A stretch of 64,000 nucleotides of DNA from Eubacteriales bacterium. GTDB taxonomy: Bacteria; Bacillota; Clostridia; Oscillospirales; CAG-272. The DNA lies in NCBI GenBank assembly GCA_045634485.1, contig JAZRAJ010000091.1, positions 166 through 64,165 on the forward strand, written 5' to 3'. The notes below the pieces were generated by a model. The model was not told the DNA's origin. It ran no database searches and saw only the letters and a program-made list of their open reading frames with translations. Positions 1 through 24,028 of the stretch are shown piece after piece (within the stretch, counting starts at the first letter, position 1; every line of letters begins with the position of its first letter). The translations under genes were made by a program, and so were the position numbers.

Positions 1-810
1 AAAAAGGCTCATGTTATCCTTGGCGAGTATTTTAAATACTTAACTCAACAAGAGCTGATAAATAAAAATCCTATGCTGTCCACACCGATGATTAAGAAAA
101 GCAATTTCTATGCGATGCAGGACAAGGAAGATTTGTCGACGAGCGAAACGGTAACGATTTTTACGGCGGAAGAAATAGAAAAATTGAAGGCTGAGGCAAA
201 TAAACAATACAAGACAGGGAAGAAGCTTTACCGCCAAGCGGGAGCGTATATTTTGATGCTCAACACGGGACTTCGAGCTGGCGAGATGTTGGGCGTTTTG
301 AACCGAGATATTGACCTTGTGGGGCGAGTTCTGCATCTTCAAAGGGGAGTAAAGGTCGTGAACAAACGCAACGGTGTGGAGCTTTTAGACGGCTCAACCG
401 AGGTCAAGGTTGGAAAGCTCAAAAGTGCGACGAGTAAGAGAGATATTCCGCTTAATGATGTTGCAATTCAAATGATAAAGGAGTTGCGAGATGAGTTCTA
501 CTTCGGAGAGGACAGTCCACTGATTTGCGACGAAAACGGAAATTACACCAAACCCGACTTGTTCCGCAGAAGATACCACCGACTCCTCGACGGAGCAGGG
601 ATAGAAAGCAAGGGTCTGCACTCGCTTCGGCATACATTCGCAACGAATCTCGTCAACGGAGTGAGGCAACCCGACGGAACGGTTAAGGCTCTGACCGTAA
701 GACAAGTCGCAGACCTGCTCGGACACTCAACAACGCAGGTGACCGAGATGTACTACGTTAAGAAGGATATGAAAATGCTCGACGGCGTGACGAATGATTT
801 TTGCCTATAA
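1..810 (+). CDS. int: tyrosine integrase, C-terminal 269 aa (5' end lies left of the window); copy 1 of 3
   Basis: Frame 1 is open from base 1 (KKAHVILGEYFKYLTQQELINKNPML...). It is collinear with aa 138-406 of the complete copies at 12957-14177 and 22471-23691. Catalytic-domain motifs: TGLRAGE, HSLRHTFATN, LLGHS, EMYYV. Confidence 0.92.
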   Translation, partial: KKAHVILGEYFKYLTQQELINKNPMLSTPMIKKSNFYAMQDKEDLSTSETVTIFTAEEIEKLKAEANKQYKTGKKLYRQAGAYILMLNTGLRAGEMLGVLNRDIDLVGRVLHLQRGVKVVNKRNGVELLDGSTEVKVGKLKSATSKRDIPLNDVAIQMIKELRDEFYFGEDSPLICDENGNYTKPDLFRRRYHRLLDGAGIESKGLHSLRHTFATNLVNGVRQPDGTVKALTVRQVADLLGHSTTQVTEMYYVKKDMKMLDGVTNDFCL

Positions 811-1539: not shown

Positions 1540-1632
1540 ATTAATTTCTCCTTCTTGTTTGATTAAAAATTGATACTTTTTTGATGCTGTACTAAATGGA
1601 AATAGTGTCACGGTATAGCACCGAAAAGAAAA

Positions 1633-1806
1633 GTGAAATATTTTGCTTCGCAAAATGTGAAATCTTCGCTCTGCTCAGGTGAAATCACTCACTTCGTTCG
1701 TGGTGAAATGAAATCCACCCACTCGCCGTAAGGCGAATTTCACTGTCCGAAGGACAATTTCACCGCCGTTTGAGGCGATTTCACCCACCCGATAGGGTGG
1801 ATTTCG
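1633..1806. repeat. phased heptamer array: 4x GTGAAAT then 3x ATTTCAC (+ATTTCG), 20-24 bp period, mostly palindromic spacers
   Basis: GTGAAAT at 1633, 1657, 1679, 1703. ATTTCAC at 1737, 1757, 1778. ATTTCG at 1801. Spacer examples: ATTTTGC-TTC-GCAAAAT, TGTCC-GAA-GGACA, CGCC-GTTTGA-GGCG, CCACCC-GATA-GGGTGG. A paralogous array lies at 16571-16744. Confidence 0.85.
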
Positions 1807-1809
1807 TTG

Positions 1810-1843
1810 AAAAAAGCCCAACGCGATTGCGTTAGGCTTTTTT
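1810..1843. terminator. bidirectional hairpin terminator abutting the tRNA-fragment repeat
   Basis: A6-AGCCCAACGC-GATT-GCGTTAGGCT-T5. An identical copy lies at 16748-16781. Confidence 0.6.
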
Positions 1844-1845
1844 CT

Positions 1846-1890
1846 TGGCAGGGGCGGGAGGACTCGAACCCGCGACCCACGGTTTTGGAG
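1846..1890 (-). repeat. 45-bp direct repeat = 3' part of tRNA-Trp (anticodon loop to CCA); att junction between island C and island B
   Basis: TGGCAGGGGCGGGAGGACTCGAACCCGCGACCCACGGTTTTGGAG is identical to 16784-16828 and to 23953-23997 inside the intact tRNA. The sequence diverges immediately beyond it. Confidence 0.95.
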
Positions 1891-2061
1891 TGGCTTCGAA
1901 GTCTTTAAAAGCCTTGAACTTGCTCGCTTTTTCGCACGGTTCAACGCACTTTCCAAACAAAACCACGTGTCATAATTGTGTCTGAAAAAAATTGATGCTT
2001 TTTTGATGCTATAAGAAATTTTTGAGTACATATTAGCCGTCAGCGTGATGTTGATGTTATG
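1891..2061. repeat. conserved integrase-distal island arm (non-coding)
   Basis: About 170 bp that align closely with 16829-17000, e.g. GCTCGCTTTTT(T)CGCACG(G/T)TTCAACGCACTTT and ACCACGTGTC(A/G)TAATTGTGTCTGAAAA. Contains TTGATGC-N5-TTGATGC at 1992-2010. Confidence 0.85.
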
Positions 2062-2090
2062 CAAAATTTGGGGCGCAATGCAAACAAAAG
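2062..2090 (+). repeat. cargo-slot boundary repeat, left copy, island B
   Basis: CAAAATTTGGGGCGCAATGCAAACAAAAG. Related copies at 12385-12414, 17001-17031 and 21932-21965. Confidence 0.8.
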
Positions 2091-2149
2091 CGATATTATT
2101 TTTGCTTTTAAAAATATGTAATCTTTTCTTTGCATTTTTGTAAAAAAAC

Positions 2150-2178
2150 TTGAAAAAATGTCGAAAACGTGCTATAAT
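2150..2178 (+). promoter_or_regulatory. sigma-A type promoter heading the WYL/dynamin cargo
   Basis: TTGAAA (2150-2155), 17-nt spacer, TATAAT (2173-2178). Confidence 0.6.
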
Positions 2179-2184
2179 AAAAGA

Positions 2185-2340
2185 GCCGCATAATCCGAAT
2201 AATTGTACCGTTAAGGGAAGATACTTTGATAAAAAGGTGTTTTCTCGTTCTTTTCATACCTTAACGGAGGAAAAAGGATTGTGTGGCAACAATCGAGATG
2301 CACTTTTTTGTGCGTCTCTGTATGGAGGCGCACTTTTTTG
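2185..2340 (+). ncRNA. structured leader or small RNA with mutually exclusive hairpins ending in a terminator
   Basis: Stem CCGTTAAGG (2208-2216) pairs with CCTTAACGG (2259-2267). Segment 1 is GAGATGCAC (2295-2303), segment 2 GTGCGTCTC (2310-2318), segment 3 GAGGCGCAC (2325-2333), followed by T6. Pairing 2:3 gives a terminator; pairing 1:2 competes with it. Confidence 0.4.
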
Positions 2341-2448
2341 TTAATAACTCGGATTATATGACTTTATTCTATTGTATCATTTCAATTAGACACACCTATG
2401 TCTTACTGTTTTGATAAAATAAAAACATCAAAAAAGGAGGCAATTTTC

Positions 2449-3420
2449 ATGGAGTCAACGCGACAAGACAGAGCTCTTGAAATCTTCTTCCGCGCCTTGC
2501 GAGGAGAGGATATTGTTGTTAATGAATTAGCGAATGAATATGGTGTGTCAACTAAAAGTATATCAAGAAATATAAGTGATTTAAAATCATTTCTTGCCGA
2601 CCACAGAGAGCTTGTCGGAAATACCGAGCTTGAGTATTCATATAAGGATAAATGTTATAGATTATATATGGACGAGTTCCTATCCAACAAGGAGTTATTT
2701 GCGCTTGTTGAGGTAATGATTGGTGCAAGAGCTTTTTCAAAAATGGAGCTTTTGACATTGATTGATAAATTAAGAAACTTTACAACGGTTGATGATAGAA
2801 GTAAGCTTAACGAGCTTATAAGAAATGAGATATATCATTATCCCGAGGTGAAGCACGATTGCGAGAGTATTCAAGACAGTCTTTGGCAGATTGTGAATTG
2901 TATTAACGAGTGTAAGGAAATTACGATTGAATATTATCGCATGGATAGGCGGTGGAAAACTCATCGTATTTGTCCTGTATCTGTAATGTTTACAGATTAC
3001 TATTTTTACCTTATTGCATTTATGGCGGAGGGAAAAAAGGACAAGCCGTATTATTTTAGACTTGATCGCATTAAGAATGTTACCGAGCATAGAAAAAAGT
3101 ATTCGGTTGACGAGATTCCTGAGTTTGATGAGGGCTTACTTCGTAAGCGTAGTACGTTTATGTGGCAAGGTAAGCTACGAACAGTTCGTTTCGAATTTAG
3201 CGGGCCATCGGTTCAAGCGGTTCTTGATAAGCTTCCAACCGCAAGAATTATTGAGCGACTTGGAGATGGAAAATATCTTATTGAGGCTGAAACCTACGGC
3301 GACGGAATCAAGATGTGGCTGCTGAGTCAGGGTAGCTGGGTTAAGGTAGTAGCACCACAGGAATTTGTGGAGGAGATAAAAGAAGAAATTAATGAAATGA
3401 GTAGTTATTACATCGAATAA
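2449..3420 (+). CDS. HTH-WYL-WCX transcriptional regulator (BrxR/CapW/PafBC-like architecture)
   Basis: AAGGAGG RBS 7 nt before ATG 2449. N-terminal HTH (NELANEYGVSTKSISRNISDLKSF). WYL-domain signature (ITIEYYRMD...RICPVSVMFTDYYFYLIAF...PYYFRLDRIKNV). C-terminal WCX-like tail (KVVAPQEFVEEIKEEI). Confidence 0.85.
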   Translation: MESTRQDRALEIFFRALRGEDIVVNELANEYGVSTKSISRNISDLKSFLADHRELVGNTELEYSYKDKCYRLYMDEFLSNKELFALVEVMIGARAFSKMELLTLIDKLRNFTTVDDRSKLNELIRNEIYHYPEVKHDCESIQDSLWQIVNCINECKEITIEYYRMDRRWKTHRICPVSVMFTDYYFYLIAFMAEGKKDKPYYFRLDRIKNVTEHRKKYSVDEIPEFDEGLLRKRSTFMWQGKLRTVRFEFSGPSVQAVLDKLPTARIIERLGDGKYLIEAETYGDGIKMWLLSQGSWVKVVAPQEFVEEIKEEINEMSSYYIE

Positions 3421-3465
3421 TATTTGCCATTTTTTTAATGTTTTCACGTGTGAGGTAGAAATGAT

Positions 3466-5931
3466 ATGAAAGAAATCATATTGGCTAATGAAGTAAAAAA
3501 GATTCTCTCGTCATCCGAACAGAGAAAGCTTCGTTATGCCAGCGACTTAAACTGGTTAAATACATGGGAAAACTTATGGACAACAGACAGAATCCGTGTA
3601 GGCGTTGTCGGTGTTACGAGCAGCGGTAAATCAACTCTGATTAACGCTTTATTGGGCGACAATCTGTTGTCTGTTGCTGTTCGTCCTTCTTCCAGCCAAT
3701 TAGTGAGCTGTTCTTATGCAAAGGAACGCTCTGCTATAGTCTATTTCTTGGACGGCAAGAAAAAGAAAATCGGAGACAATGCACAGTTGAAAGATTCAAT
3801 CGTGCAGTATTCCGATGAAAGCTATAACAAGCGGAACGAAAAGCAGGTTGCCCAGCTTGAACTTTCTACGCCTAATTTTGACTTAGGCGAAGATGTTTTA
3901 TTGGTTGATAGCCCTGGCTTAGATGCAACCGGTTATGAAGCTCACGAAAAGCTGACCTTGGAAACGCTTCTTCCTACTGTCGATGTAGTCATCTTTGTTA
4001 CTACGGTCAAATCGGAAGTTGATAAGAAGATGAAGCAGACACTTGATACCATAGCAAAGTACAACTGCCCTGTGATGGTTGTTCAGAATATGCTTGATGC
4101 CGTTCGTCCGAGCGTTGATGGTAGAAAGAGTGCTGCCGACGTAGCTAAAGAGCGAATGAACCGAGTTCAATTAGCGGTAGAACAATCAAAGATAAAGAAT
4201 AAAAACGAAGTTAAAATCACTCAAATTTCCGCTGTTATGGCAATGCAATATCGTTGCCATAAAGAGCATAGCGAAGAAGAAACTCGTAATTTTAAGCGTT
4301 CCAGATATGAAACTTTTGTTGCCGGTGTAAAAGAATTGGTCGCATCTAAAAGACCGGAAATCGAAAAGCAGCGAGTGAAGACAATTTTGGAGCACATTGA
4401 GGAGCTTATTCGTCAAGAAGATAAGCGTACCCAAAATATCAGTACCAATATCCTTGTTGATAATACACTTTCTTCCGTATCCGAAAGTGTTACTGAAGCC
4501 TTGGACACTACATACGATGATATTCAAGGCGTTATTCAAGAATTACAGAGAATGTATGATAAATACTTCTCGGATAGCAACTCCACGAAAAAGAATAAGT
4601 CAACAGTTTCCTTTTTGGGGATTGCATCATCTCTATTCTCCTCCTCAAAGGATTCTCTTGATGAGGATGAAATCAAGGAAATCAAACGAGTAGTTAAGCT
4701 GTTTGAAACAAAGGTTGTCCAGAGTGTGCGTGGTTTCTCGACACAATGTTCAGCCGCAATCAAAAAATTAAATCTACCTACTCGTGATTTATGGAGTTAT
4801 AACGGACTTCCTCGTATGCCGGAAGTCGAAGTAAAAACCAAAACTGTAGAGCGCAGCAGAACGGTCAAGAAGAAAGGCTTCGGTCATACTCTCGGTAGAA
4901 TCTTTTCTTTGGGACTTTATAAAGGCACGGAAACAGAGCACTATACCGAAACTGTTGTTGACGATGAAGCAACACGGGAATCTGCCAAGCGTTATATTGA
5001 GCGACTTCAATTTGAATATGGCAAAACGCTCGAAGCTTGGCATACCAACGCTAAATCAACAGTTGCTTCTATACAGCAAGAAATCGACCTTCGTTTTGCA
5101 GCTATTCAAGAGAAAGAACAGCAAGTTATGGATGCTGCCGATTGGAAAGAAATCCGTGCGGCTCTTGAAAAGTACATGAGCGAATATGGTGGCATAAAGA
5201 CCCCTGTTGTACAAACGGAATCTACATCAAAAGAGCAACCACAAGAAACACAAGACAGCACCAAACTTATCAAGGTTTCTGCCCAAATTGCTCATTTACA
5301 TGATGCGGCTGAAAAATACCTTTTTGCCGTGCAGAGTTCCTCGTTTAATTACGCATTAGAAGCCAAAGAACGTAAAGGCTGTCCTGCTTTTGTAGTATCA
5401 AATAGCCCAGATAATTTAACGGACTTCCTTTATCGTTTCTACGGAATAAAAAAGAATGATTTCTCAAAGGAATCCATTCTACATCTTTCCGATGAGTTGA
5501 CCGTGGCTTGTTCCCCGACAGATGCTCAGTTGGAATCCTTGAAGCAACCGGCGACAGGCACGAACATTTTCCTGTTGATAAATGGCTTGCAGTTCCATAC
5601 CGAGTACGAAACAGCACTCCGTCATGCTGTTCAAGGGAACTTAAAAGATAATGATGCCCTGTTTTTCGTTATCCAAGATTTTGAAATATTGGCTAACGGA
5701 AATGCTATTACAGAGTGCATTAGAACCGTCCGGATGGAACAAGGTTCACACAAAGGCGTTGTTCTTATCAGCCATAAAAATCCCGTGTATAACATGGCTG
5801 TTATTCACGCTCAAACAACGGAAGGAAAACTCAAAGAAGAAACGATATTCTATAATTCTTTGACAACCAAGTTCCCATCATTGGTCGATGAAGTTGCAAA
5901 GAAACGTATAAACAACATATTGCGTACCTAA
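3466..5931 (+). CDS. dynamin-like GTPase A (821 aa) with an extra C-terminal alpha/beta-like domain
   Basis: G1 GVTSSGKSTLINALLG. G3 LLVDSPGLD. G4-like VVQNMLD. Long helical middle region. C-terminal ~220 aa unassigned. GAGGT RBS. Confidence 0.85.
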   Translation: MKEIILANEVKKILSSSEQRKLRYASDLNWLNTWENLWTTDRIRVGVVGVTSSGKSTLINALLGDNLLSVAVRPSSSQLVSCSYAKERSAIVYFLDGKKKKIGDNAQLKDSIVQYSDESYNKRNEKQVAQLELSTPNFDLGEDVLLVDSPGLDATGYEAHEKLTLETLLPTVDVVIFVTTVKSEVDKKMKQTLDTIAKYNCPVMVVQNMLDAVRPSVDGRKSAADVAKERMNRVQLAVEQSKIKNKNEVKITQISAVMAMQYRCHKEHSEEETRNFKRSRYETFVAGVKELVASKRPEIEKQRVKTILEHIEELIRQEDKRTQNISTNILVDNTLSSVSESVTEALDTTYDDIQGVIQELQRMYDKYFSDSNSTKKNKSTVSFLGIASSLFSSSKDSLDEDEIKEIKRVVKLFETKVVQSVRGFSTQCSAAIKKLNLPTRDLWSYNGLPRMPEVEVKTKTVERSRTVKKKGFGHTLGRIFSLGLYKGTETEHYTETVVDDEATRESAKRYIERLQFEYGKTLEAWHTNAKSTVASIQQEIDLRFAAIQEKEQQVMDAADWKEIRAALEKYMSEYGGIKTPVVQTESTSKEQPQETQDSTKLIKVSAQIAHLHDAAEKYLFAVQSSSFNYALEAKERKGCPAFVVSNSPDNLTDFLYRFYGIKKNDFSKESILHLSDELTVACSPTDAQLESLKQPATGTNIFLLINGLQFHTEYETALRHAVQGNLKDNDALFFVIQDFEILANGNAITECIRTVRMEQGSHKGVVLISHKNPVYNMAVIHAQTTEGKLKEETIFYNSLTTKFPSLVDEVAKKRINNILRT

Positions 5932-5954
5932 GAGGACGATGAAAGGAGATTGTC

Positions 5955-6860
5955 ATGCAATCTAAGGATATAGTAATGCAGGTTTCGGAAGAAACCGCTG
6001 AAGTAATGGAAGAAATATCAGAACAGCTTATGGAAGAATCTGATGCTCGTTTCGACGAAGTTGTGGAAGCCATCGAAGAAGCTGTAAAAAAAGTTGAAAG
6101 TCTCTATGCCGAGTTTACAGGCTATGCCGGTAATTCTAATAAGCAGCTAACATCAAACCAAGCGGAACTTATGGATAAGTTTGGTACTGTTTTGGATGCT
6201 ATTGGGGTGTTCAGAAAAGAAATTGGTGAACAAACAGTACAATCAAACGAAAAGGTTGATCGTTTGATTGTAATCATGGCTGATGTTCCCCAGCTCGTTC
6301 AAGCCGTTTCAAACAGCATCTCCGAATCCGCTGATGCGAGAGGCAAATTTGAAGCTACTCTTTTGGAAGATGTAAAGGGTCTTGCTCAAAGTCTTGTCGA
6401 ATTTCAGAAGCTTCAATCCGATGTTGTGGACAAGCTAAATGCTGATGACAGTCAAGAAAAGCTGATTTCTGCTCTAAATAAATTAACTGATATTGAAAAG
6501 GAAATTCTTCAAACCAAGGACGCTATCGGGAATGTTTCTGACACGCTTCGGAATTGTAGCACTCTTATCGAACAGCTTCTGTCCTCTGTGAAAGGCTTGC
6601 AGGAGAATGACGAAAAGATTCTTAATGTTGGTGAAGAAAACACCAAGAAGGCTGATGAGCTTGGAAAACAGACCGAGGAGACTTCAAAGCTACTCTTTGA
6701 AAAAATGGGCGATATATTGATCTATCTCGATACACTCTCCCATTCCGTTCAAACTATTTCGAAAAAGCAAAACGAACTCTGTGAAAAGCAAGCGGAGCTT
6801 GATAAAGATGTGAAATATTTGAAATTGCCATTCTTTAAAAGATGGTTTACGAAAGGATGA
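5955..6860 (+). CDS. acidic coiled-coil protein (301 aa) with a basic/aromatic C-terminal tail
   Basis: AAAGGAG RBS. E/D/Q/K-rich heptad-like sequence throughout. Ends in LKLPFFKRWFTKG. Its stop codon overlaps the next gene's start. Confidence 0.7.
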   Translation: MQSKDIVMQVSEETAEVMEEISEQLMEESDARFDEVVEAIEEAVKKVESLYAEFTGYAGNSNKQLTSNQAELMDKFGTVLDAIGVFRKEIGEQTVQSNEKVDRLIVIMADVPQLVQAVSNSISESADARGKFEATLLEDVKGLAQSLVEFQKLQSDVVDKLNADDSQEKLISALNKLTDIEKEILQTKDAIGNVSDTLRNCSTLIEQLLSSVKGLQENDEKILNVGEENTKKADELGKQTEETSKLLFEKMGDILIYLDTLSHSVQTISKKQNELCEKQAELDKDVKYLKLPFFKRWFTKG

Positions 6861-8704
6861 AGAAAATTATGGTAGACTATATTATAGGCGATTCAAGGTT
6901 GCTTGAATTGTTAGACAAATACTCTGCTGTTGTCGGTGAAGGAGCTAAGGCTTCCGACATTATCAGTAAATTGGCTCAGAATGTCCAAAACCCCGAACTC
7001 ATTGTGCCCGTGTTGGGTTCGCAAGGCATGGGAAAAAGCACTCTTATAAATGCTATCCTTGGTGCTAATATCCTTCCTAATGATGCAGATGAAACAACGT
7101 GTGTTCCTGTTGAAATCCGTTATGGCACAAACGAGAAGGCTGTGGTTTACTTCCAATCTGGAGAAACGGCAGAAATCGAACTCTCATGTGATTCGCTTCG
7201 TGAGTTCGTTGACAACAACGAAAACGACGGCAACGAAAAGTGTGTGTCTCACATTGCACTTGAAACGCCGAGCGAGTTACTTAAAACAGGTCTTGTCATT
7301 GTTGACCTTCCCGGTGTTGGCTCTTTGACACAGAATAACCACGAAACAACAATGAGATACATTCGCCAGTTGTGTACAGCAATTTTTGTTATCCCTACAG
7401 TACCCACAATCAGACGAAGTGAGGAAGTCTTTATTCGTGGTGCTTGGAGCAGTTTTTCTTCTGCTATTTTTGTTCAGAACAGATGGGATGACGAGACAGA
7501 CCAGGAAGTTAATGATTCTGTGGCTTTCAACTCTTTAGTATTAAATAACATCGCTAAAAACGCCAATACAACTTTCAACGGAAAGATTTGTGTGGTTAAT
7601 GCGTATAGAGCTATTCTAAGCAGATTACATAATGATTCCGCAGAGTGTGAGCGTTCTAATCTTCCGGAGCTTCTTACCGAGTTGGAAAACCTCGGTGAAA
7701 ATAGAATCAATCTGGAAACCGCCAATTTTAAGGCAAAAGTCGGTTCCTATATTGAGGCAGCCCAAGCTGCTATTATGCAGTATATTGCCGAAAGTCAAAT
7801 GAACGAAGAACAGCTCCGTGCTGAACGAGAGAGGATTTACGAGGAGTTTAATGCTGCTACTAACGAAATCCAGCAGCTTGTTGATGATGTTTTGGAGTGT
7901 GTAGAAGACGAAAAAAACAAAGCAGACATTTTCGCCGGAAAATTGGCTAAAGAATCTGCTGAAAGTCTTCGTGCCGACACTCACAAATTGATAGGCAATG
8001 GTATTGTTGATGGCGAGCAGTTGACGGAGGCGTTTTCTGACTATCAAGAGAAGTATCTTTTGGATGCGGTTGAGCAGCACTACGATTATATGAATACCAT
8101 GACCTACGAGTTAGGCAAAAAACTTGAAGTTTTGGCAGAAAAGATTTCACTTGAACGAGCATCTTCCTTTGAAGCTCAGAAGTTTGAAAACGGACAAGCT
8201 TTCAAGTTTGAGAAAGGGTTGGAGTTTGGTATTGACCTTGCTGGAGCCATTGGTGGTACATATACTGCTGCTGCAGTTGGTGGCATGGCGTGTTGGACTA
8301 GTGGCAAAATCGGTGCAGCTCTTGGTTCTGCTGGTGGACCTATTGGTACTGCAATAGGTATTGTGGCTGGTATTGCTGTAGGTGTTGTTGTTGGACTTAT
8401 AGGAAAGAAAACTAAGCATAGCATTACTGCTAAACGTGGCTCACAAGCAAAAAAAGCAATCGAGCCTTTCATCGAGGAATTTCAAGATAAAATCTATGTG
8501 TCTATTTCCTCAAACATTAACGCAGTTATGGAGAGCATCACGGATATTCTGCAATCCTATATAGAAGACCGCAGAGCCTACTATGAAGATATGATGCAGG
8601 CGAAAGAACGTGCTGCTGATGCAGACCATGAAAGCAAATTTGACGTTGCCGAGCTGAATGAGCATTACGCTTATCTTGAAAGCAAAAAGGAGGCTTTGAA
8701 ATGA
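6857..8704 (+). CDS. dynamin-like GTPase B (~615 aa) with a glycine-zipper membrane hairpin
   Basis: G1 GSQGMGKSTLINAILG. G3 VIVDLPGVGS. G4-like VQNRWDD. Hydrophobic Gly-rich stretch GAIGGTYTAAAVGG...GIVAGIAVGVVVGLIGKK (nt ~8238-8410). The start is taken as ATG 6857 (ATGA overlap with the upstream stop); 6842 or 6869 are possible. Confidence 0.85.
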   Translation: MKKIMVDYIIGDSRLLELLDKYSAVVGEGAKASDIISKLAQNVQNPELIVPVLGSQGMGKSTLINAILGANILPNDADETTCVPVEIRYGTNEKAVVYFQSGETAEIELSCDSLREFVDNNENDGNEKCVSHIALETPSELLKTGLVIVDLPGVGSLTQNNHETTMRYIRQLCTAIFVIPTVPTIRRSEEVFIRGAWSSFSSAIFVQNRWDDETDQEVNDSVAFNSLVLNNIAKNANTTFNGKICVVNAYRAILSRLHNDSAECERSNLPELLTELENLGENRINLETANFKAKVGSYIEAAQAAIMQYIAESQMNEEQLRAERERIYEEFNAATNEIQQLVDDVLECVEDEKNKADIFAGKLAKESAESLRADTHKLIGNGIVDGEQLTEAFSDYQEKYLLDAVEQHYDYMNTMTYELGKKLEVLAEKISLERASSFEAQKFENGQAFKFEKGLEFGIDLAGAIGGTYTAAAVGGMACWTSGKIGAALGSAGGPIGTAIGIVAGIAVGVVVGLIGKKTKHSITAKRGSQAKKAIEPFIEEFQDKIYVSISSNINAVMESITDILQSYIEDRRAYYEDMMQAKERAADADHESKFDVAELNEHYAYLESKKEALK

Positions 8705-10500
8705 CTTTTTCTGACTTAAAGAAAAAACACGAAATCATTCAAAAGCTGATTGATGCTACAAACGATGAAGAACTTTCCACTTTGTCCAAGTTTATGCGTA
8801 GCAGAATTTCTTCTCCTGAAAGCTATGTTACGATGCTGGGTGAAACAAGTAGCGGAAAGACTACTTTAATCAACGGGCTTCTTAATGAACGACTTTTGAA
8901 AACAAGTGCAGTTCCAACTACAGGTGCAATCGTGGAAGTCCACTTTGATTCTGAGGTTACATCTCCAGAATATTATGCCATCAATCGTGATGCCACAATG
9001 GAGAGACTTGATGCAAATACTTTCGGGGATTTATCGAGTAATCCCGACGATTTGTTAGCAAGATTGCAAATTGCTGTTCCGGAAGTTAATGGTCTTGCTG
9101 GATTAAGATTGTTTGACACTCCTGGTTACGGTTCCATTGTGGATAAGCACGAGGAAGTTCTGCGAGAGTTCATTCCTAACAGCGATGTTATCATCTATGT
9201 TATTGGCTACAAAATCGGCATCCAAGAAAACGACTTTCTCTTTATGCGTTGCATCCAGGAGCTGATACACGATGATACGGATGTAATTGTTGTTGTAAAC
9301 CGTTGTCCTGCAACGGTCTCAGAAAAAGATAGACGTATGACGGAGATTCGCCGTTATGCAGAGGATTTGTTCCATAGGGATATTCCGATTTTTACTGTAG
9401 CAACCGAAACGAGCGATACCGGATATACGTTGCCTAAAGCTGCAAATTTGTGGGCTTATGTAAATAAATTGCTGAACTCTGCAGAGAGACAAGAAACGCT
9501 TATCAGTACACTCAACTCTTATCTGGATGACCTTTTGGCGCAGGCAGATAGCCTCATCGAAAAGCACGAGCTTGCAAACATCATGTCTCAAAAAGAGAAA
9601 GAGGAACTCAAAGCCTGTGCTGACGAGCTTCGTAGAAAAGGCAACGACATCGTAAATACGGAAATCACTCCTACGTTTGACCGCCTTATTGCAAATACAC
9701 CAAGATTGTTTGAACAGGCAAAGGAAACCATTCATGCGGAACTTTCTGAAGCTATTGCTGATGAAAGAACATGTCGCATGGATGAAACCATCGCTTTTGT
9801 AAATAACCACTCTCTCCCCATGGCAATTAACCGAGAAACCAAGGAGTATGAAAGACGGTTAATGCTGGAACTTGATGCAATGAATGAGCGTGTTGACGAT
9901 TATCTCAACGAGGCTATCGCTAACTACTACCATGAAATCGAACTTCATTTTGCAACAAACGCAGAGCTTGCAGCTCGTACAGGCGGAGGCAAAATCGTGG
10001 GTAAGATGATGGAAAACGGCTTGCGTCAATACTTTGCCGCTTTTGGCGGCGCTGGCGGTGCAGGTGCCGGTGTTGCAAACGCCGCAAAGCACTTGCTAAG
10101 TAAAACAGGAAAGCTTTTCGGTAAAAAATTCTCGCGCGAAACATACAACAAACTTGCTCACACTCTCAGTAAGATGAAATTCACGTCGCTTAAGGCAATT
10201 GGAAATGCTGTTACTGTAATAATTGAGGTTGCCCAGGTCATAATCGACTATTCGACGTGGAAGCCAAAGTTAAAGAAACAAGTCCGAAAAGGTTTGGGTG
10301 AGTGGTATGACAAGACCGTAGATACCGTAACCAAGGACTTGGAAAACCTTAAAGCTGAAAACATTAAAACACTGAAGGATATTATCGACGATATTGCCTC
10401 TACATACGAGCTGGAGGCAGAGGAAATGATTGAAAATATGCCAGAACTGATAGCGTTGAAAGCTGAAACACATAAGAAATTGGAGGAAGCAAAATTATGA
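8701..10500 (+). CDS. dynamin-like GTPase C (599 aa)
   Basis: AAGGAGG RBS and an ATGA overlap with the upstream stop. G1 GETSSGKTTLINGLLN. G3 RLFDTPGYGS. Degenerate G4 VVVNRCP. Gly-rich FAAFGGAGGAGAGVANAA (nt ~10035-10083). Confidence 0.85.
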   Translation: MTFSDLKKKHEIIQKLIDATNDEELSTLSKFMRSRISSPESYVTMLGETSSGKTTLINGLLNERLLKTSAVPTTGAIVEVHFDSEVTSPEYYAINRDATMERLDANTFGDLSSNPDDLLARLQIAVPEVNGLAGLRLFDTPGYGSIVDKHEEVLREFIPNSDVIIYVIGYKIGIQENDFLFMRCIQELIHDDTDVIVVVNRCPATVSEKDRRMTEIRRYAEDLFHRDIPIFTVATETSDTGYTLPKAANLWAYVNKLLNSAERQETLISTLNSYLDDLLAQADSLIEKHELANIMSQKEKEELKACADELRRKGNDIVNTEITPTFDRLIANTPRLFEQAKETIHAELSEAIADERTCRMDETIAFVNNHSLPMAINRETKEYERRLMLELDAMNERVDDYLNEAIANYYHEIELHFATNAELAARTGGGKIVGKMMENGLRQYFAAFGGAGGAGAGVANAAKHLLSKTGKLFGKKFSRETYNKLAHTLSKMKFTSLKAIGNAVTVIIEVAQVIIDYSTWKPKLKKQVRKGLGEWYDKTVDTVTKDLENLKAENIKTLKDIIDDIASTYELEAEEMIENMPELIALKAETHKKLEEAKL

Positions 10501-10913
10501 GTCGTGATTTTGAAATCGTTCAAAGTAGAAGAAATACCCCCACCCCTGCAGTAGACCAGGGAGATGTTACTGTTCTCCCTTCTTCTCAAAACAATTCTCG
10601 TATCGGAGATGCTATTGCAGATAACTTCGGTCAGATATTAGACCTTGCATCCAATATTGTTGAAATTGAGAAGATGAAGGTTCAGTCCGAGGCTGTATTG
10701 AAGCAGATGGAGGAATCCAGAAAGAATCTCTTGGCAGAGGCAGAGGCTTATGCCACTAAGAAAAATGCCGATACTGACAGCGTAATTCAGAAAATGCAGA
10801 TGGTCAGAGACATGATGCGTGATTTCTACCAGTACAACAACAATGCTAATCTGTCCGGCGAAGACTTCTCTCGCATAATCAGCAGCATTGTTAGTGAGAT
10901 GGGACGGTTATAA
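10497..10913 (+). CDS. hypothetical helical protein (138 aa), operon member
   Basis: ATGA overlap with the stop of the preceding GTPase gene. GGAGG RBS at 10482-10486. No family recognised. Confidence 0.65.
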   Translation: MSRDFEIVQSRRNTPTPAVDQGDVTVLPSSQNNSRIGDAIADNFGQILDLASNIVEIEKMKVQSEAVLKQMEESRKNLLAEAEAYATKKNADTDSVIQKMQMVRDMMRDFYQYNNNANLSGEDFSRIISSIVSEMGRL

Positions 10914-10914
10914 T

Positions 10915-11247
10915 ATGGTATCAATCGGTGGATTTGGCGATTTGTTTTCTGTTGTTTTAGCCGCTTCTAAGGATAAGGTTTATATGGAAACAGCCGAGAA
11001 AATGCAGGCTGCTTTTCATGAACTGATTCTTGCTGAGGCTGATGCAAGGCGAGATAAAACAGCTACGTTGATTCGTACCATGGCAAAAATCGATGGTGAG
11101 GTTATTCGATTTAAAATAGAATATAATCGTATTATTGAACAGTTATCACCAGAGGCTATAGCTGCAATTGATGGCTATTTGAAAATAATAGAGCAGAAGA
11201 AGAAAGATATTGCTCACGAAAAAAATGCAATGAAGGTTAGGAGGTAA
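10915..11247 (+). CDS. hypothetical helical protein (110 aa), operon member
   Basis: ATG lies 1 nt after the upstream stop. Same strand and compact spacing. No family recognised. Confidence 0.55.
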   Translation: MVSIGGFGDLFSVVLAASKDKVYMETAEKMQAAFHELILAEADARRDKTATLIRTMAKIDGEVIRFKIEYNRIIEQLSPEAIAAIDGYLKIIEQKKKDIAHEKNAMKVRR

Positions 11248-11252
11248 TACTT

Positions 11253-11465
11253 ATGTCATCGTTGTTGGTGAACATAAAGCATATAAATAAATGCGCATTT
11301 TGCAAGTATTGGTATGATCCTACGAATAGTGCGATTATTCCTAAATCGCCCGCTATTGGATTATGGGAAATACGCGACATTAATCAAAAATGTATGTGCT
11401 TAAAGAAAAATGCTAAAATGTCTGCTAATTCATTTTGCAGTAGCGATTTTATCAGTAAAATTTAA
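11253..11465 (+). CDS. Cys-rich small protein (70 aa)
   Basis: GGAGG RBS inside the end of the previous gene. CAFCKYW...CMC...C pattern suggests metal binding. Confidence 0.55.
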   Translation: MSSLLVNIKHINKCAFCKYWYDPTNSAIIPKSPAIGLWEIRDINQKCMCLKKNAKMSANSFCSSDFISKI

Positions 11466-11506
11466 TTTTAAAAATTATTATTTATTTGATGGAGAAAATA
11501 AAATTC

Positions 11507-11641
11507 ATGAGCATTCTTATTATGAAGCGTAAATGTGTATATTGTAAGAAGGTATATACATATAATCCAAGTGTTGGAAATTTCGGGCTTGTGTGTCCGA
11601 AATGTAATAGGAGTCAGCCGATTTCTCGTTTTATAAAGTAA
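11507..11641 (+). CDS. zinc-ribbon mini-protein (44 aa; not in the supplied ORF track)
   Basis: MSILIMKRKCVYCKKVYTYNPSVGNFGLVCPKCNRSQPISRFIK. Pattern is CxxC-N17-CxxC. GGAGAA lies upstream of the ATG. Confidence 0.45.
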   Translation: MSILIMKRKCVYCKKVYTYNPSVGNFGLVCPKCNRSQPISRFIK

Positions 11642-11715
11642 AAAAATATTAAACGGTTTAAAAACGAATTTTGGTTGAATGTTCTTATAATTTGTTTATC
11701 AAGACACCCATCTGT

Positions 11716-11768
11716 CCTCCTGTAAGTGTATAATTTTAGTACAAGCTAAAAATTATATTTACAGGAGG
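11716..11768 (+). promoter_or_regulatory. long hairpin sequestering the RBS of the 11776 ORF
   Basis: CCTCCTGTAAGTGTATAATTTT (11716-11737) pairs with AAAATTATATTTACAGGAGG (11748-11768). The right arm contains the GGAGG located 7 nt before ATG 11776. Confidence 0.55.
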
Positions 11769-11775
11769 CTTTTTT

Positions 11776-12357
11776 ATGATATTCGATTGGAAGAACAACA
11801 AAGAGGAAGCGTTAGCTAACGGTGTGTATGAGAAAAATATTTTATCTGTTGGCTTAGTTATGATGAAAACGACAAACAAGGTGGTTGCGCATCATACGTT
11901 CCGCAACTTTGAAAAGCTGGAATTTGAAGAGGGAACGCTCATTGAGGATTGCATTTTTGAGGATTGCGGCACGATTACGTTTAACGAGTGCAGAATTGAG
12001 AATTGCTCATTTTCTCGTATAGAATTTATTTATTCTACCGACGATTGCTTTAGCAATTCAAAGTTTTCAAAGTTGGTGTGCGATGATGATATGCTAATAA
12101 GCTTAGAGAACACAGAAATCACTCATTGTAGCTTTGATGACGTGGAGCTTCGTGAGGATTCCTATCTTTGCGATGGCGTTGGAACAGCGTGGATTGAGCA
12201 TTGTAGCTTTTCAAATATTCGCACAAGCAGAGAGGATAAGGAAATTATTATTAGCGAGCAAACTGTCGGTAAGATTTTCAAGCGCAAGGAGCAGTTTTGC
12301 ATTGTAGATGAAGAAACCTGCACCGGACTTGATTCTATTATTGAATTAGAGGATTGA
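11776..12357 (+). CDS. hypothetical protein with repetitive Cys/Phe-containing beta-helix-like repeats (193 aa)
   Basis: Repeats such as IEDCIFEDCGTITFNECRIENCSFSRIEF and ITHCSFDDVEL...IEHCSFSNIR resemble pentapeptide/beta-helix repeat proteins. The family assignment is not secure. Confidence 0.6.
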   Translation: MIFDWKNNKEEALANGVYEKNILSVGLVMMKTTNKVVAHHTFRNFEKLEFEEGTLIEDCIFEDCGTITFNECRIENCSFSRIEFIYSTDDCFSNSKFSKLVCDDDMLISLENTEITHCSFDDVELREDSYLCDGVGTAWIEHCSFSNIRTSREDKEIIISEQTVGKIFKRKEQFCIVDEETCTGLDSIIELED

Positions 12358-12384
12358 AGCTTTTAAAATGGTTTTTTCGCCCCT

Positions 12385-12414
12385 CAAAATTTGGGGCGCA
12401 TAAACAAAGAAGAA
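12385..12414 (+). repeat. cargo-slot boundary repeat, right copy, island B
   Basis: CAAAATTTGGGGCGCATAAACAAAGAAGAA. Partners at 2062-2090, 17001-17031 and 21932-21965. Confidence 0.8.
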
Positions 12415-12450
12415 GGATTTTTGAAATCAAGTAAATTTACGGTCATTATC

Positions 12451-12479
12451 TTGACAAGTTTTTCGTCTTGTGTTATAAT
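12451..12479 (+). promoter_or_regulatory. perfect consensus promoter (extended -10), specific to island B
   Basis: TTGACA (12451-12456), 17 nt, TGtTATAAT (12471-12479). The ~100 bp containing it is absent from the homologous region of island A. Confidence 0.65.
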
Positions 12480-12550
12480 CAAATAGAACGATATGTTCTT
12501 AAAATTGAAAGTGAGCTATCCGCCCATCTGTGAAAATGGGGAGCAAGGGT

Positions 12551-15206: not shown

Positions 15207-15232
15207 AATAAAGATTTTACGGAGATAGTTAT

Positions 15233-16570: not shown

Positions 16571-16744
16571 GTGAAATATTCGGCTTTGCCGAATGTGAAA
16601 TAATCCACTTCGTGAATTGTGAAATATTTCCCTTCGGTCGATGTGAAATGAAATTTGCCCACATTCGCGTCAGCGAATATTTCACATTTGCGGAGCAAAT
16701 ATTTCACAGCAAAGCTATTTCACTTGCCTAAAGGGCAAATTTCG
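16571..16744. repeat. phased heptamer array, second copy (island B integrase-proximal end)
   Basis: GTGAAAT at 16571, 16595, 16619, 16643 (exact 24-bp period). ATTTCAC at 16679, 16701, 16717. ATTTCG at 16739. Spacer examples: ATTCGGC-TTT-GCCGAAT, AATCCAC-TTC-GTGAATT, ATTTGC-GGA-GCAAAT, AGC-AAA-GCT, TTGCCT-AAA-GGGCAA. Confidence 0.85.
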
Positions 16745-16747
16745 TTG

Positions 16748-16781: not shown

Positions 16782-16783
16782 CT

Positions 16784-16828
16784 TGGCAGGGGCGGGAGGA
16801 CTCGAACCCGCGACCCACGGTTTTGGAG
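16784..16828 (-). repeat. 45-bp direct repeat of the tRNA-Trp 3' part; att junction between island B and island A
   Basis: Identical to 1846-1890 and 23953-23997. Confidence 0.95.
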
Positions 16829-17128: not shown

Positions 17129-17145
17129 AAAAGGTAGGTGGTTTT

Positions 17146-23952: not shown

Positions 23953-24028
23953 TGGCAGGGGCGGGAGGACTCGAACCCGCGACCCACGGTTTTGGAGACC
24001 GGTACTCTACCAACTGAGCTACACCCCT
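23953..24028 (-). tRNA. trnW: tRNA-Trp (anticodon CCA), 76 nt with encoded CCA
   Basis: Reverse complement is AGGGGTGTAGCTCAGTTGGTAGAGTACCGGTCTCCAAAACCGTGGGTCGCGGGTTCGAGTCCTCCCGCCCCTGCCA. Acceptor stem AGGGGTG/CGCCCCT. Anticodon loop CU-CCA-AA. T-loop TTCGAGT. Discriminator G. Confidence 0.93.

What the first reader, a model, noticed from the sequence alone, without database searches (positions are those of the whole stretch)
1633..1806. Phased GTGAAAT / ATTTCAC heptamer array with palindromic spacers next to the att site
Seen:
- Four GTGAAAT repeats (1633, 1657, 1679, 1703) are followed by ATTTCAC in the opposite orientation (1737, 1757, 1778) and a degenerate ATTTCG (1801).
- The period is 20-24 bp, about two helical turns, so the sites lie on one DNA face.
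- Most spacers are themselves small hairpins: ATTTTGC-TTC-GCAAAAT, TGTCC-GAA-GGACA, CGCC-GTTTGA-GGCG, CCACCC-GATA-GGGTGG.
- The array ends at the bidirectional terminator and the 45-bp tRNA repeat.

I do not recognise this design. The repeat is far too short for CRISPR, and it is not a simple iteron because the spacers are structured.

Inference, three hypotheses:
(i) arm-type or recombination-directionality-factor binding sites;
(ii) a transcribed multi-hairpin RNA;
(iii) single-strand DNA hairpins used during transfer or replication of the excised island.
Basis: partly seen in the sequence, partly recalled or inferred. Interest (0 to 1): 0.7.

Follow-up and report, generated by a model that had tools for sequence, protein, structure and literature searches.

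The report
Double Gut-1 hairpin array beside tRNA
The heptamer/hairpin array is real, but it is a mirrored double copy of the already catalogued, still function-less "Gut-1" structured motif of gut bacteria, which sits just after tRNA gene terminators and is not part of the island integrase's attachment machinery.

Summary
Seven exact GTGAAAT/ATTTCAC heptamers, with hairpin spacers, lie at 1633-1808. A second array of the same plan lies at 16571-16746.

The tRNA-proximal half of each array scores above threshold for Rfam RF01706, the Gut-1 RNA motif (72.4 and 60.3 bits; cut-off 50). Weinberg et al. described Gut-1 in 2010 from gut metagenomes, with no function or organism. The other half is a weaker, inverted, longer-period copy.

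The same plan of 8 heptamers and 7-8 hairpins recurs in 30 further arrays, mostly from gut Clostridia MAGs. It directly follows the terminator of tRNA genes of at least 12 identities, always in one polarity. Hairpin stems covary (89% Watson-Crick against 28% shuffled), and so does an 11-nt long-range complement.

Six related islands from other samples (integrase 84-91% identical), and island 1 of this window, lack the array. It is therefore not the integrase's arm-type site.

Best reading: an accessory, modular structured element that folds as a single strand. I favour RNA made as a 3' trailer. Single-stranded DNA is not excluded, and loop chemistry even favours the opposite strand. Function remains unknown. 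This is a new member of a known motif, with new context.

The parts
1633..1709 (+). Left (long-period) half of array 1. Four GTGAAAT heptamers (1633, 1657, 1679, 1703) separated by hairpins A (1640-1656), B (1664-1678) and C (1686-1702). B and C carry a TC/TC 2x2 internal loop.
   Evidence: Weak Gut-1 match at 1619-1690 (+), 32.8 bits. The same positions are conserved in 32 parsed arrays.
1710..1736 (+). Centre of array 1. Segment X is GAAATCCACCC (1710-1720). Hairpin D is TCGCC-GTAA-GGCGA (1723-1736).
   Evidence: I1: arms 1707-1725 and 1790-1808, 19 nt, 84% complementary. X/X' are exactly complementary over 10-12 nt in 26 of 38 candidate centres parsed, with at least 6 sequence types.
1732..1809 (-). 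Right (short-period) half of array 1, a full-length Gut-1 motif. Read on the - strand it is CAACGAAAU, hairpin G (1785-1800), GUGAAAU, hairpin F (1764-1777), GUGAAAU, hairpin E (1744-1756), GUGAAAU. X' (GGGTGGATTTC, 1795-1805) overlaps the 3' arm of hairpin G.
   Evidence: Rfam RF01706, 72.4 bits against a gathering score of 50, E = 9e-14, model positions 1-77 of 77.
1809..1844 (.). Bidirectional intrinsic terminator T_b (A6, a 16-bp stem, T6). It lies between the array and the tRNA fragment.
   Evidence: (I2). The sequence is identical at 16747-16782.
1846..1890 (-). 45-nt 3' part of tRNA-Trp (att core repeat O3).
   Evidence: Three exact copies in the window: 1846, 16784 and 23953.
1571..1611 (+). 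Conserved integrase-arm segment, TGATACTTTTTTGATGCTGTAC..GGAAATAGTGTCAC. This is the likely true arm-type region. Homology to array-less islands ends at about 1611.
   Evidence: Alignment A1 of five P' arms. TTTTGATGMT is enriched in the window, 35 matches against 19.2 +/- 4.2, and clusters in both arms of each island.
16571..16746 (+). Array 2, with the same plan. GTGAAAT on the + strand at 16571, 16595, 16619 and 16643. X is GAAATTTGCCC. ATTTCAC at 16679, 16701 and 16717. Last hairpin at 16724-16738, followed by ATTTCGT.
   Evidence: Gut-1 match at 16674-16747 (-), 60.3 bits. Parsed.
16784..16828 (-). att core repeat O2 (tRNA-Trp 3' 45 nt). It is preceded by terminator T_b at 16747-16782.
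23953..24028 (-). Complete tRNA-Trp (core O1 = 23953-23997). The adjacent island 1 arm has a different terminator and no array.
1..810 (+). 3' part of integrase int3 (island 3). Its paralogues are int2 at 12957-14177 and int1 at 22471-23691.
   Evidence: tblastn shows 89-91% identity among the three. Homologues carry Pfam PF14659, PF22022 and PF00589.

Best explanation
**What it is.** The array is a dyad-symmetric double copy of the Gut-1 element (Rfam RF01706). Gut-1 is a chain of short G+C-rich hairpins with position-specific identities, joined by a conserved heptamer (GUGAAAU).
- The tRNA-proximal half is a canonical Gut-1 motif on the tRNA strand.
- The distal half is an inverted copy with a longer period.
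- An 11-12-nt segment (X) just after the fourth heptamer is complementary to the 3' arm of the last hairpin plus ATTTC (X'). The right half can therefore either close on itself or form its terminal hairpin.

**Where it sits.** It is an accessory, recombining module whose normal home is directly after the terminator of a tRNA gene, or sometimes a protein gene, in a fixed polarity. In this window it rides in the tRNA-proximal arm of two of three tandem integrase islands. It is not the integrase's arm-type binding site.

**How it most likely works.** It folds as a single strand. I favour RNA made as the 3' trailer of the upstream tRNA or gene, by read-through and processing. In that model the hairpins are the scaffold, and the 8-10 copies of the heptamer are the sites read by a multimeric partner, or form a repeated tertiary motif.

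**Shown versus inferred.**
- Shown: family membership, conserved architecture, covariation, polarity, and independence from the integrase.
- Inferred: that the folded molecule is RNA, that it comes from the tRNA-sense strand, and that the heptamer is a binding site.

**Confidence.** The value given (0.5) is for the whole statement, including the RNA mechanism. For identity as a Gut-1 member that is not an integrase arm site, I would put it above 0.9.
For: **Family membership**
- Rfam RF01706 hits of 72.4 and 60.3 bits, full length.
- Further Gut-1 hits in 18 of 20 fetched loci, including Akkermansia.

**Conserved architecture**
- 32 fully parsed arrays share 8 heptamers and 7 hairpins plus the centre.
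- 22-28 distinct sequences occur at each hairpin position.
- 89% of nested pairs are Watson-Crick, against 28 +/- 1.5% in shuffles.
- The outer stems are position-specific: ATT/AAT, AAT/ATT and ATC..GAT.

**Long-range pairing**
- X/X' are exactly complementary over 10-12 nt in 26 of 38 candidate centres parsed.
- There are at least 6 sequence types, and even the first base is compensated (TAAAT...ATTTA).

**Concerted heptamer change**
- GTGATAT-type arrays keep the whole plan, with ATATCAC in the second half and TATAT in X.

**Polarity**
- 22 of 22 complete tRNAs within 150 nt lie upstream on the GTGAAAT-reading strand.
- 22 of 27 upstream protein genes are co-directional, while downstream genes split 11:11.
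- Some arrays start 17-26 nt after a stop codon with no terminator in between.
- In several loci a terminator in tRNA sense follows the array.
- On the GUGAAAU strand only, each stem can be extended by U.G + A-U from the linkers.

**Not integrase arm sites**
-.
Against: - A strong bidirectional terminator always lies between the tRNA and the array.
- No sigma-70-like promoter is found next to the array on either strand. A transcript therefore needs read-through.
- Loop chemistry points to the opposite strand. On the GTGAAAT strand, 140 of 225 loops are T..C. That makes them C-GNA-G or C-GNNA-G on the ATTTCAC strand, closed by C-G in 201 of 225.
- Hairpin C has tandem TC/CT mismatches, which read as tandem G.A on the other strand.
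- RNA-parameter energies slightly favour the ATTTCAC strand (-0.27 kcal/mol; 87 against 41 hairpins).
- Wobble pairs are rare (44 of 1568 stem positions) and show no strand bias (24 against 20). That is unusual for a purely RNA-level constraint.
- In the double array each strand carries one half of each kind.
- No expression data could be consulted.
- The literature gives no function.
Confidence: 0.5

Rival explanations
1. **A single-stranded DNA element.** The hairpins fold in ssDNA on the ATTTCAC-reading strand, for example on the lagging-strand template or on a displaced or transferred strand. A strand-specific enzyme (HUH nuclease or transposase, primase or primosome, or a recombinase acting on folded DNA) then reads each hairpin together with its flanking heptamer. 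This would be analogous to REP/BIME-RAYT, IS200/IS605 ends, integron attC or ssi signals. The dyad symmetry would place the 'GNA-loop' half on the 3' side of either strand.
For: - C-G-closed GNA triloops and GNNA tetraloops dominate on the ATTTCAC strand. From memory (Hirao et al.), d(GCGNAGC) mini-hairpins are exceptionally stable in DNA and much less so in RNA.
- Triloops are common (103 of 225).
- Wobble pairs are rare and unbiased.
- Hairpin C carries tandem G.A on that strand.
- The architecture is dyad-symmetric.
- Many arrays are bracketed by terminators on both sides, and no promoter is found.
- Similar arrays spread among different tRNA loci and genomes, and their halves reassort.
- Integrase-less mini-islands exist.
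Against: - No HUH, Rep, relaxase or RAYT gene lies in the window islands or was seen recurrently next to arrays.
- The nearest-neighbour DNA energy model available shows almost no strand difference.
- Fixed polarity relative to upstream genes is equally explained by co-transcription.
- Stem sequences differ between copies, unlike REP families.
Confidence: 0.25
2. **Duplex DNA protein-binding sites.** The heptamers would be arm-type or RDF sites of the island integrase, iterons of an island origin, or centromere-like ParB-type half-sites. The spacers would be incidental.
For: - There are repeated short sites in two inverted sets next to an att core.
- The heptamer changes in concert throughout an array (GTGATAT type), as expected for one DNA-binding protein.
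- From memory, ATTTCAC equals the P1 ParB box A heptamer and resembles parS/NBS half-sites.
- One locus (L099) has a ParB-like gene 581 nt away.
Against: - The array is absent from 6 of 6 related islands with the same integrase, and from island 1.
- No heptamers occur in the P arms.
- Spacer palindromy with compensatory change, conserved loop type and position-specific stems are unexplained by duplex binding.
- The spacing is not helically phased: 16-22 and 24-25 bp.
- No rep or par genes lie in the islands.
- No similar sequence occurs in plasmid or phage isolate collections.
Confidence: 0.08
3. **A passive or selfish repeat that at most acts as a transcriptional buffer.** The array would be a MITE-like mosaic repeat that accumulates and recombines at tRNA 3' flanks. 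Its hairpin-plus-AUUUC units would only damp read-through in both directions between the tRNA and neighbouring accessory genes.
For: - Arrays occur in tandem or duplicated without genes between them (L110, L066, L034).
- The halves reassort between loci.
- Flanks are identical but the hairpin subfamilies differ in the window's two arrays.
- Arrays sit at hot spots with variable accessory genes.
- On the ATTTCAC strand each hairpin is followed by a short U-run, and the double array presents that orientation to transcription from both sides.
Against: - The exact heptamer is strongly conserved, including its CAC/GTG part.
- Position-specific stems and the X/G5/X' three-way complementarity are kept across at least 6 subfamilies and in the GTGATAT class. 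That implies more specific selection than a generic hairpin barrier.
- A U3 tract is a poor terminator.
Confidence: 0.15

Closest known systems
Gut-1 RNA motif (Rfam RF01706; Weinberg et al. 2010, Genome Biol 11:R31, PMC2864571)
   Same: - Full-length matches above the gathering score on the - strand at 1732-1809 and 16674-16747.
- Same consensus: CAAUGAAAU, hairpin, GUGAAAU, hairpin, GUGAAAU, hairpin, GUGAAAU, with covarying stems.
- Same habitat (gut).
   Different: The published motif is only the three-hairpin core. It was reported as 'human gut only', in no sequenced organism, with no context or function.

Here it is one half of a unit of about 175 nt. That unit has a mirrored longer-period half, a long-range X/X' complement and a fixed position after tRNA terminators. 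Carriers are identifiable (Clostridia/Oscillospirales MAGs, and Akkermansia). The mirrored second half is visible in the flanks of Weinberg's own alignment but is not part of the model.
REP/BIME (REPIN) extragenic palindromes of Proteobacteria and their RAYT transposases
   Same: - Short conserved single-stranded tag next to an imperfect palindrome.
- Arranged in clusters with inverted orientation.
- Extragenic, typically just after gene 3' ends and terminators.
- Strand-specific recognition is plausible.
   Different: REP stems are nearly identical within a genome family. Here only the 7-nt linker is constant and every stem differs, with compensatory change. No RAYT/IS200-like gene was seen nearby. 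The taxa differ. This comparison rests on my own knowledge of REPs and was not tested.
Arm-type integrase sites of lambda-like attP
   Same: Repeated short sites in inverted sets within about 50-200 bp of a tRNA-derived core, close to a tyrosine integrase gene.
   Different: Tested and not met. The array is absent from related islands with the same integrase and from the P arm. A different conserved segment (TTTTGATGCT repeats) fills the arm role.
3'ETS / tRNA-trailer-derived small RNAs (e.g. E. coli 3'ETS-leuZ)
   Same: Encoded immediately 3' of a tRNA gene, on the same strand. Would be released from the precursor without a promoter of its own.
   Different: Known 3'ETS RNAs end at the operon terminator. 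Here the array lies beyond a strong terminator, and its expression is unproven. The comparison is from memory.
Integron attC sites
   Same: Structure is conserved while sequence is not. Function (for attC) as folded single-stranded DNA. Association with accessory gene cassettes and a tyrosine recombinase.
   Different: attC is a single imperfect palindrome with R''/L''-L'/R' boxes and extrahelical bases. There is no heptamer-linked multi-hairpin chain, no IntI, and no attC-like core sites here.

Membership tests
Gut-1 RNA motif (RF01706) | Covariance-model score at or above the curated gathering score (50 bits) over the full model | tested here: met
   72.4 bits (1732-1809, - strand) and 60.3 bits (16674-16747, - strand), model positions 1-77 of 77. 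The left half reaches only 32.8 bits.
Gut-1 RNA motif (RF01706) | Three hairpins with covarying stems separated by GUGAAAU linkers, with a 5' (C)AAUGAAAU | tested here: met
   The alignment to the model is shown. Family-wide, 89% of nested pairs are Watson-Crick against 28% in shuffles, over 151 distinct hairpins.
Gut-1 RNA motif (RF01706) | Functions as a transcribed RNA (Rfam type: Gene; sRNA) | not testable with these tools
   No expression data are available. No promoter was found. Polarity supports co-transcription, while loop chemistry favours the opposite strand.
Integrase arm-type / RDF binding sites | Conserved in the att arms of related elements that use the same integrase | tested here: not met
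   Six related islands (integrase 84-91% identical) and island 1 of the window lack the array but keep another arm segment.
Integrase arm-type / RDF binding sites | Sites present in both the P and P' arms, or at least specific to one integrase/core | tested here: not met
   No heptamers lie in 1891-6800 or 16829-19000. Near-identical arrays lie next to tRNAs of at least 12 identities.
Integrase arm-type / RDF binding sites | Bound by the integrase N-terminal domain or by Xis | not testable with these tools
   Needs EMSA or footprinting.
Iteron-type replication origin | Identical 17-22-bp direct repeats next to a rep gene and an A+T-rich/DnaA-box region | tested here: not met
   Only 7 nt are constant. 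The spacers are G+C-rich palindromes. No rep gene appears among the island ORFs scanned.
REP/BIME-RAYT | Palindrome sequence nearly identical among copies in a genome; a cognate RAYT gene | tested here: not met
   Stems differ in every unit and between the window's two arrays. No IS200/RAYT-like neighbour appears among clustered flanking ORFs. Presence of a RAYT elsewhere in the genome was not tested.
CRISPR array | Repeats of about 23-50 nt with non-palindromic spacers of similar length; cas genes | tested here: not met
   The repeat is 7 nt, the spacers are 9-18-nt palindromes, and the number of units is fixed.
Type III antitoxin RNA (ToxI-like) | Near-identical tandem repeats of about 34-45 nt immediately upstream of a toxin endoribonuclease gene | tested here: not met
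   Units are 16-25 nt with different stems. The neighbours are variable accessory genes.

The most novel reading that the evidence does not exclude
The double Gut-1 array is the cis-acting module of an unrecognised class of integrase-less mini-cassettes that pile up at tRNA 3' ends. It would fold as single-stranded DNA into C-GNA-G mini-hairpins. A trans-acting protein would recognise it through the concertedly evolving heptamer. One candidate is the Avd-like four-helix-bundle PF05635 protein, whose gene lies within 100 nt of GTGAAAT arrays in at least 9 loci, including plain (GTGAAAT)n repeats in other phyla. The X/G5/X' alternative pairing would act as a conformational switch.
Probability: 0.12. 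Interest if true: 0.8.

Novelty: new member of a known kind. Interest (0 to 1): 0.45.

Why it matters
Gut-1 has been an orphan motif since 2010: "human gut only", with no organism, no context and no function. This locus and its relatives give it five things.
- **Carriers.** Gut Clostridia/Oscillospirales MAGs, and Akkermansia.
- **A fixed address.** It sits immediately after the terminator of tRNA genes and some protein genes, in one polarity.
- **A larger true unit.** The unit has 8 heptamers and 7-8 position-specific hairpins, a mirrored half and a covarying long-range complement.
- **Heptamer classes that change in concert.**
- **A recurrent neighbour.** This is the PF05635 Avd-like gene.

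Together these turn an uninterpretable motif into one that can be tested by RNA-seq, probing and pull-downs in defined strains.

For annotation of this window, the practical point is negative. The array should not be taken as the recombination machinery of the tRNA-Trp defence islands. Their likely arm sites are the TTTTGATGCT-type repeats.

Tried and rejected
- **Heptamers of the two halves pairing with each other.** This would give a ladder of 7-bp helices and four-way junctions. MFE folds do use such pairs. But mixed units in L330 and L352 are not compensated in a nested scheme, L114 and L003 have near-cognate second halves, and L007 pairs GTGAAAT arrays with GCATCAT arrays. The model is rejected as a general one.
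- **Wobble-pair strand test.** A first count (19 A.C against 7 G.T) suggested the ATTTCAC strand. With a filter that treats G.T and A.C alike and more loci it became 24 against 20. It is not informative.
- **DNA-parameter folding of individual hairpins on both strands.** Triloops gave identical energies on both strands, and tetraloops gave about 0.4 kcal/mol in favour of the G..A strand. This energy model cannot decide.
- **Promoter search next to the array and by eye in left flanks of 30 loci.** No conserved promoter was found.
- **Exact-sequence look-ups of three window proteins.** None was on record. I switched to integrase homologues.
- **blastn of the array against isolate phage and plasmid collections.** No match. 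In IMG/VR only about 8 of 120 pattern hits are true arrays, at tRNA or prophage edges.
- **MAFFT alignment of 32 full arrays.** It was good for the left half but out of register in the right half. Pair statistics were therefore computed from a heptamer-anchored parse instead.
- **Coding remnant.** Rejected. Unit lengths are not multiples of 3, and the only ORFs across the array are short and not conserved.
- **Literature.** Only Weinberg 2010 mentions Gut-1 or RF01706. The term 'GTGAAAT' gave nothing relevant.
Full report
**1. Observation**

The sequence at 1633-1808 reads as follows:

GTGAAAT-hpA-GTGAAAT-hpB-GTGAAAT-hpC-GTGAAAT-[GAAATCCACCC-ACT-hpD]-ATTTCAC-hpE-ATTTCAC-hpF-ATTTCAC-hpG-ATTTCGT

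- The window holds 25 exact heptamers against 11.4 +/- 3.8 in shuffles. Fourteen of them lie in two clusters of about 150 bp.
- The second cluster, at 16571-16746, has the same layout.
Spacers B and C are hairpins with a TC/TC 2x2 internal loop.
- A bidirectional terminator follows at 1809-1844.
- After it comes an exact 45-nt copy of the 3' part of tRNA-Trp. That 45-mer occurs three times, at 1846, 16784 and 23953. The last copy lies inside the complete tRNA-Trp gene at 23953-24028 on the - strand.

**2. Local context**

The three core repeats delimit three tandem islands. Each has a tyrosine integrase (1-810 partial, 12957-14177, 22471-23691) that is 89-91% identical to the others.

| Island | Extent | Cargo or feature |
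|---|---|---|
| 1 | 16829-23952 | AbiEi/AbiEii and an SF1-helicase-like protein |
| 2 | 1891-16783 | WYL/WCX regulator, three dynamin-family GTPases, then int, an HTH protein, DUF3267 and a SAM methyltransferase |
| 3 | runs off the left end of the window | integrase int3, one ORF, array 1 |

- Islands 2 and 3 each end, on the tRNA-proximal side, with: conserved arm segment, 21 nt, array, terminator T_b, core.
- Island 1 has the same arm segment but then about 105 nt of unrelated sequence and a different terminator.

**3. Identity**

An Rfam scan matches RF01706, "Gut-1 RNA", on the - strand.

| Region | Strand | Score |
|---|---|---|
| 1732-1809 | - | 72.4 bits, E = 9e-14, full model |
| 16674-16747 | - | 60.3 bits (gathering score 50) |
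| 1619-1690 (left half) | + | 32.8 bits |

- Each array is therefore a canonical Gut-1 motif plus a mirrored, more divergent copy.
- Gut-1 was described by Weinberg et al. 2010 (PMC2864571). [quoted passage not shown] No function or context was given.
- No later paper in the library mentions it.
- Weinberg's raw alignment already shows tRNA-plus-terminator upstream and inverted heptamers downstream in some rows, and a GUGAUAU/AUAUCAC variant.

**4. Relatives**

- After filtering for hairpin spacers, 104 half-arrays remained in 74 loci.
- 32 arrays, two of them in the window, could be parsed completely into the same plan.
- The carriers are mostly gut Clostridia, Eubacteriales, Oscillospiraceae, Acutalibacteraceae and Christensenellaceae MAGs.
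- Rfam confirms Gut-1 in 18 of 20 further loci, including Akkermansia.

*Features of the plan.*
- The left period is 24-25 bp (76 of 96 intervals). The right period is 16-22 bp.
- Each hairpin position holds 22-28 distinct sequences.
- 89% of nested pairs are Watson-Crick, against 28 +/- 1.5% after shuffling.
- The outer stems are position-specific: hpA ATT/AAT, hpB AAT/ATT, hpC ATC-TC..TC-GAT.

*The long-range complement.*
- The 11-12 nt after the fourth heptamer (X) are exactly complementary to the 3' arm of the last hairpin plus ATTTC (X') in 26 of 38 candidate centres parsed.
- There are at least six sequence types: AAATCC, TTTGCCC, TTCGCC, CCACCC, CCGTCC and TTCGTTCC.
- Even the first base is compensated (TAAAT...ATTTA in L043 and L027).
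- The 5' arm of the last hairpin repeats part of X. X:X' and the terminal hairpin are therefore mutually exclusive pairings.

*The heptamer variant class.* A metagenome scan for the GTGATAT variant found the same plan, with ATATCAC second halves and TATAT-type X/X'. The heptamer therefore changes in concert throughout an array.

**5. Position and polarity**

- In 22 of 22 cases where a complete tRNA lies within 150 nt, it is upstream and on the strand on which the adjacent half reads GTGAAAT. At least 12 tRNA identities are involved.
- The terminator starts 1-2 nt after the encoded CCA, and the array starts right after its T-tract.
- One-directional arrays follow protein genes in the same polarity (22 of 27). 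Downstream genes split 11:11.
- Some arrays start 17-26 nt after the stop codon with no terminator between.
- Several arrays are followed by a tRNA-sense terminator (L034, L066, L106, L069, L089).

**6. Relation to the integrase**

Homologues of the integrase are abundant. I fetched their contexts.

| Loci | Integrase identity to the window's int1 |
|---|---|
| L121-L124 | 84% |
| L133, L134 | 86% |
| L376 (same host locus: MTHFR/MetH beside tRNA-Trp) | 91% |
| L377 | 87% |
| L378 | 87% |

- All of these sit next to intact tRNA-Trp.
- All keep the arm segment with TTTTGATGMT repeats. That motif is enriched in the window (35 matches against 19.2) and is present in both arms of each island.
- None has a heptamer array.
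- The alignment of five P' arms shows that [array + T_b] exactly replaces [about 105 nt + another terminator] between the arm segment and the core.
- The array is therefore not this integrase's arm-type or RDF site.

Conversely, arrays about 90% similar to the window's occur next to other tRNAs with different terminators. The right half of array 2 resembles that of L099, which sits beside tRNA-Glu. Left and right halves also reassort: the left half of array 2 resembles those of L076 and L018.

The window's two arrays have identical flanks but belong to different hairpin subfamilies. The array behaves as an exchangeable module.

Some arrays lie in integrase-less mini-islands:
- L093 has a 23-nt exact tRNA-Ser 3' repeat 899 nt beyond its array.
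- Six loci have tRNA T-arm-like fragments 15-62 nt from the distal end, against about 0.5 expected.

**7. Which strand, which molecule?**

For tRNA-sense RNA (the Rfam orientation):
- the fixed polarity described in section 5;
- the absence of any promoter requirement under co-transcription;
- the fact that the linker extends each stem by U.G + A-U only on that strand.

Against it:
- the intervening strong terminator;
- no promoter nearby;
- 140 of 225 loops read T..C on that strand, which is C-GNA-G or C-GNNA-G on the other strand, and 201 of 225 are closed by C-G;
- tandem TC/CT mismatches, which read as tandem G.A on the other strand;
- a small RNA-energy advantage for the ATTTCAC strand;
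- few and unbiased wobble pairs.

C-GNA-G mini-hairpins are, to my knowledge, a hallmark of very stable DNA hairpins. The DNA energy model available here does not encode this and could not discriminate.

In the double array each strand carries one half of each kind. I therefore rank the readings as follows:

| Reading | Confidence |
|---|---|
| RNA | about 0.45-0.5 |
| Single-stranded DNA | about 0.25 |
| Selfish repeat or buffer | about 0.15 |
| Duplex binding sites | about 0.08 |

**8. Other leads**

- The most recurrent neighbour is a PF05635 (23S_rRNA_IVP, Avd-like four-helix-bundle) gene of about 115 aa. It lies within 100 nt of GTGAAAT arrays in at least 9 loci.
- In some of these it sits so close (L255: 25 nt) that it must be transcribed through the array.
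- It also lies next to plain (GTGAAAT)n tandem repeats in other phyla.
- PF05635 proteins are known as scattered genes in rRNA intervening sequences, cas loci and DGRs.
- This protein is a candidate reader of the heptamer, but only about 10% of arrays have it adjacent.

**9. Verdict**

- The finding is real and far from chance.
- It is a new, double-form member of a known but functionally orphan motif family.
- The att-site interpretation is refuted.
- The multi-hairpin-RNA interpretation is the best supported but unproven.
- The ssDNA interpretation remains a serious rival.

Noticed in passing
window 1-24028: Three tandem tyrosine-integrase islands occupy one tRNA-Trp. The 45-nt core repeat occurs at 1846, 16784 and 23953. 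The cargo looks like phage defence: AbiEi/AbiEii plus an SF1-helicase-like protein of 1077 aa (17146-21874), and a WYL/WCX regulator plus three dynamin-family GTPases (2398-10500).
   Followed up: partly
L008, L027, L042, L058, L060, L073, L085, L255 (hairpin arrays); L022, L029, L112 (tandem heptamers): A PF05635 (23S rRNA intervening-sequence / Avd-like four-helix-bundle) gene lies within about 100 nt of GTGAAAT arrays. It is sometimes only 25 nt away, with no room for a promoter of its own. This also holds for plain (GTGAAAT)n repeats in Chlorobi and other phyla. It is a possible functional partner of the heptamer.
   Followed up: partly
window 1571-1611, 1985-2010, 16506-16526, 16928-16948, 23770-23799: TTTTGATG(C/A)T repeats cluster in both arms of every island and in all related islands from other samples. 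They are the likely real arm-type integrase sites.
   Followed up: partly
L261, L277, L292, L308, L322, L330, L352 (metagenome contigs): A second heptamer class exists. GTGATAT/ATATCAC arrays have the same architecture, including X/X' (TATATTCGCC / GGCGAATATA). A few arrays mix single ATTTCAC units among ATATCAC ones.
   Followed up: yes
L093 (array 4738-4891); L116, L117, L043, L031, L033, L066 (5032-5183): These are integrase-less mini-islands. L093 has an exact 23-nt tRNA-Ser 3' repeat 899 nt beyond its array, enclosing only the array and a methyltransferase gene. The other six loci have degenerate tRNA T-arm fragments 15-62 nt from the distal end of their arrays.
   Followed up: partly
L007 3300-3900; L039, L012, L111, L114: Gut-1 arrays are sometimes followed or preceded by other heptamer systems. 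Examples are GCATCAT-linked hairpins, AATTCAC-linked hairpins, and spacer-less 7-nt tandem repeats (TATTCAC, TAATCAC, TTGTTCA). One-directional arrays end in GTTRAGGARG, which pairs with a downstream CYTCCTYAAC in L039.
   Followed up: no
window 1633-1808 against 16571-16746: The two arrays share identical flanks: 21 nt on the left, and terminator T_b plus the core on the right. Almost every hairpin differs between them. The halves match different foreign arrays (L076/L018 for the left half of array 2, L099 for its right half). This suggests cassette-like exchange at the heptamers.
   Followed up: partly
window 46026-46200 (-): A lysine riboswitch (RF00168, 83.4 bits) lies in the host part of the window.
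   Followed up: no
heptamer itself; L099 (ParB-like ORF 581 nt from the array): From memory only: ATTTCAC is the P1 ParB box A heptamer, and GTGAAAT(A) lies between the parS (GTGAAACA) and Noc NBS (GGGAAATA) half-sites. One array has a ParB-like gene nearby. This was not tested.
   Followed up: no
L376 (ena:ERZ28593640 scaffold_713): This is the same host locus as the window (tRNA-Trp next to the MTHFR and methionine-synthase genes). It carries a single island with a 91%-identical integrase, a DUF4379 protein of 764 aa and no array. It is a useful comparator strain.
   Followed up: partly
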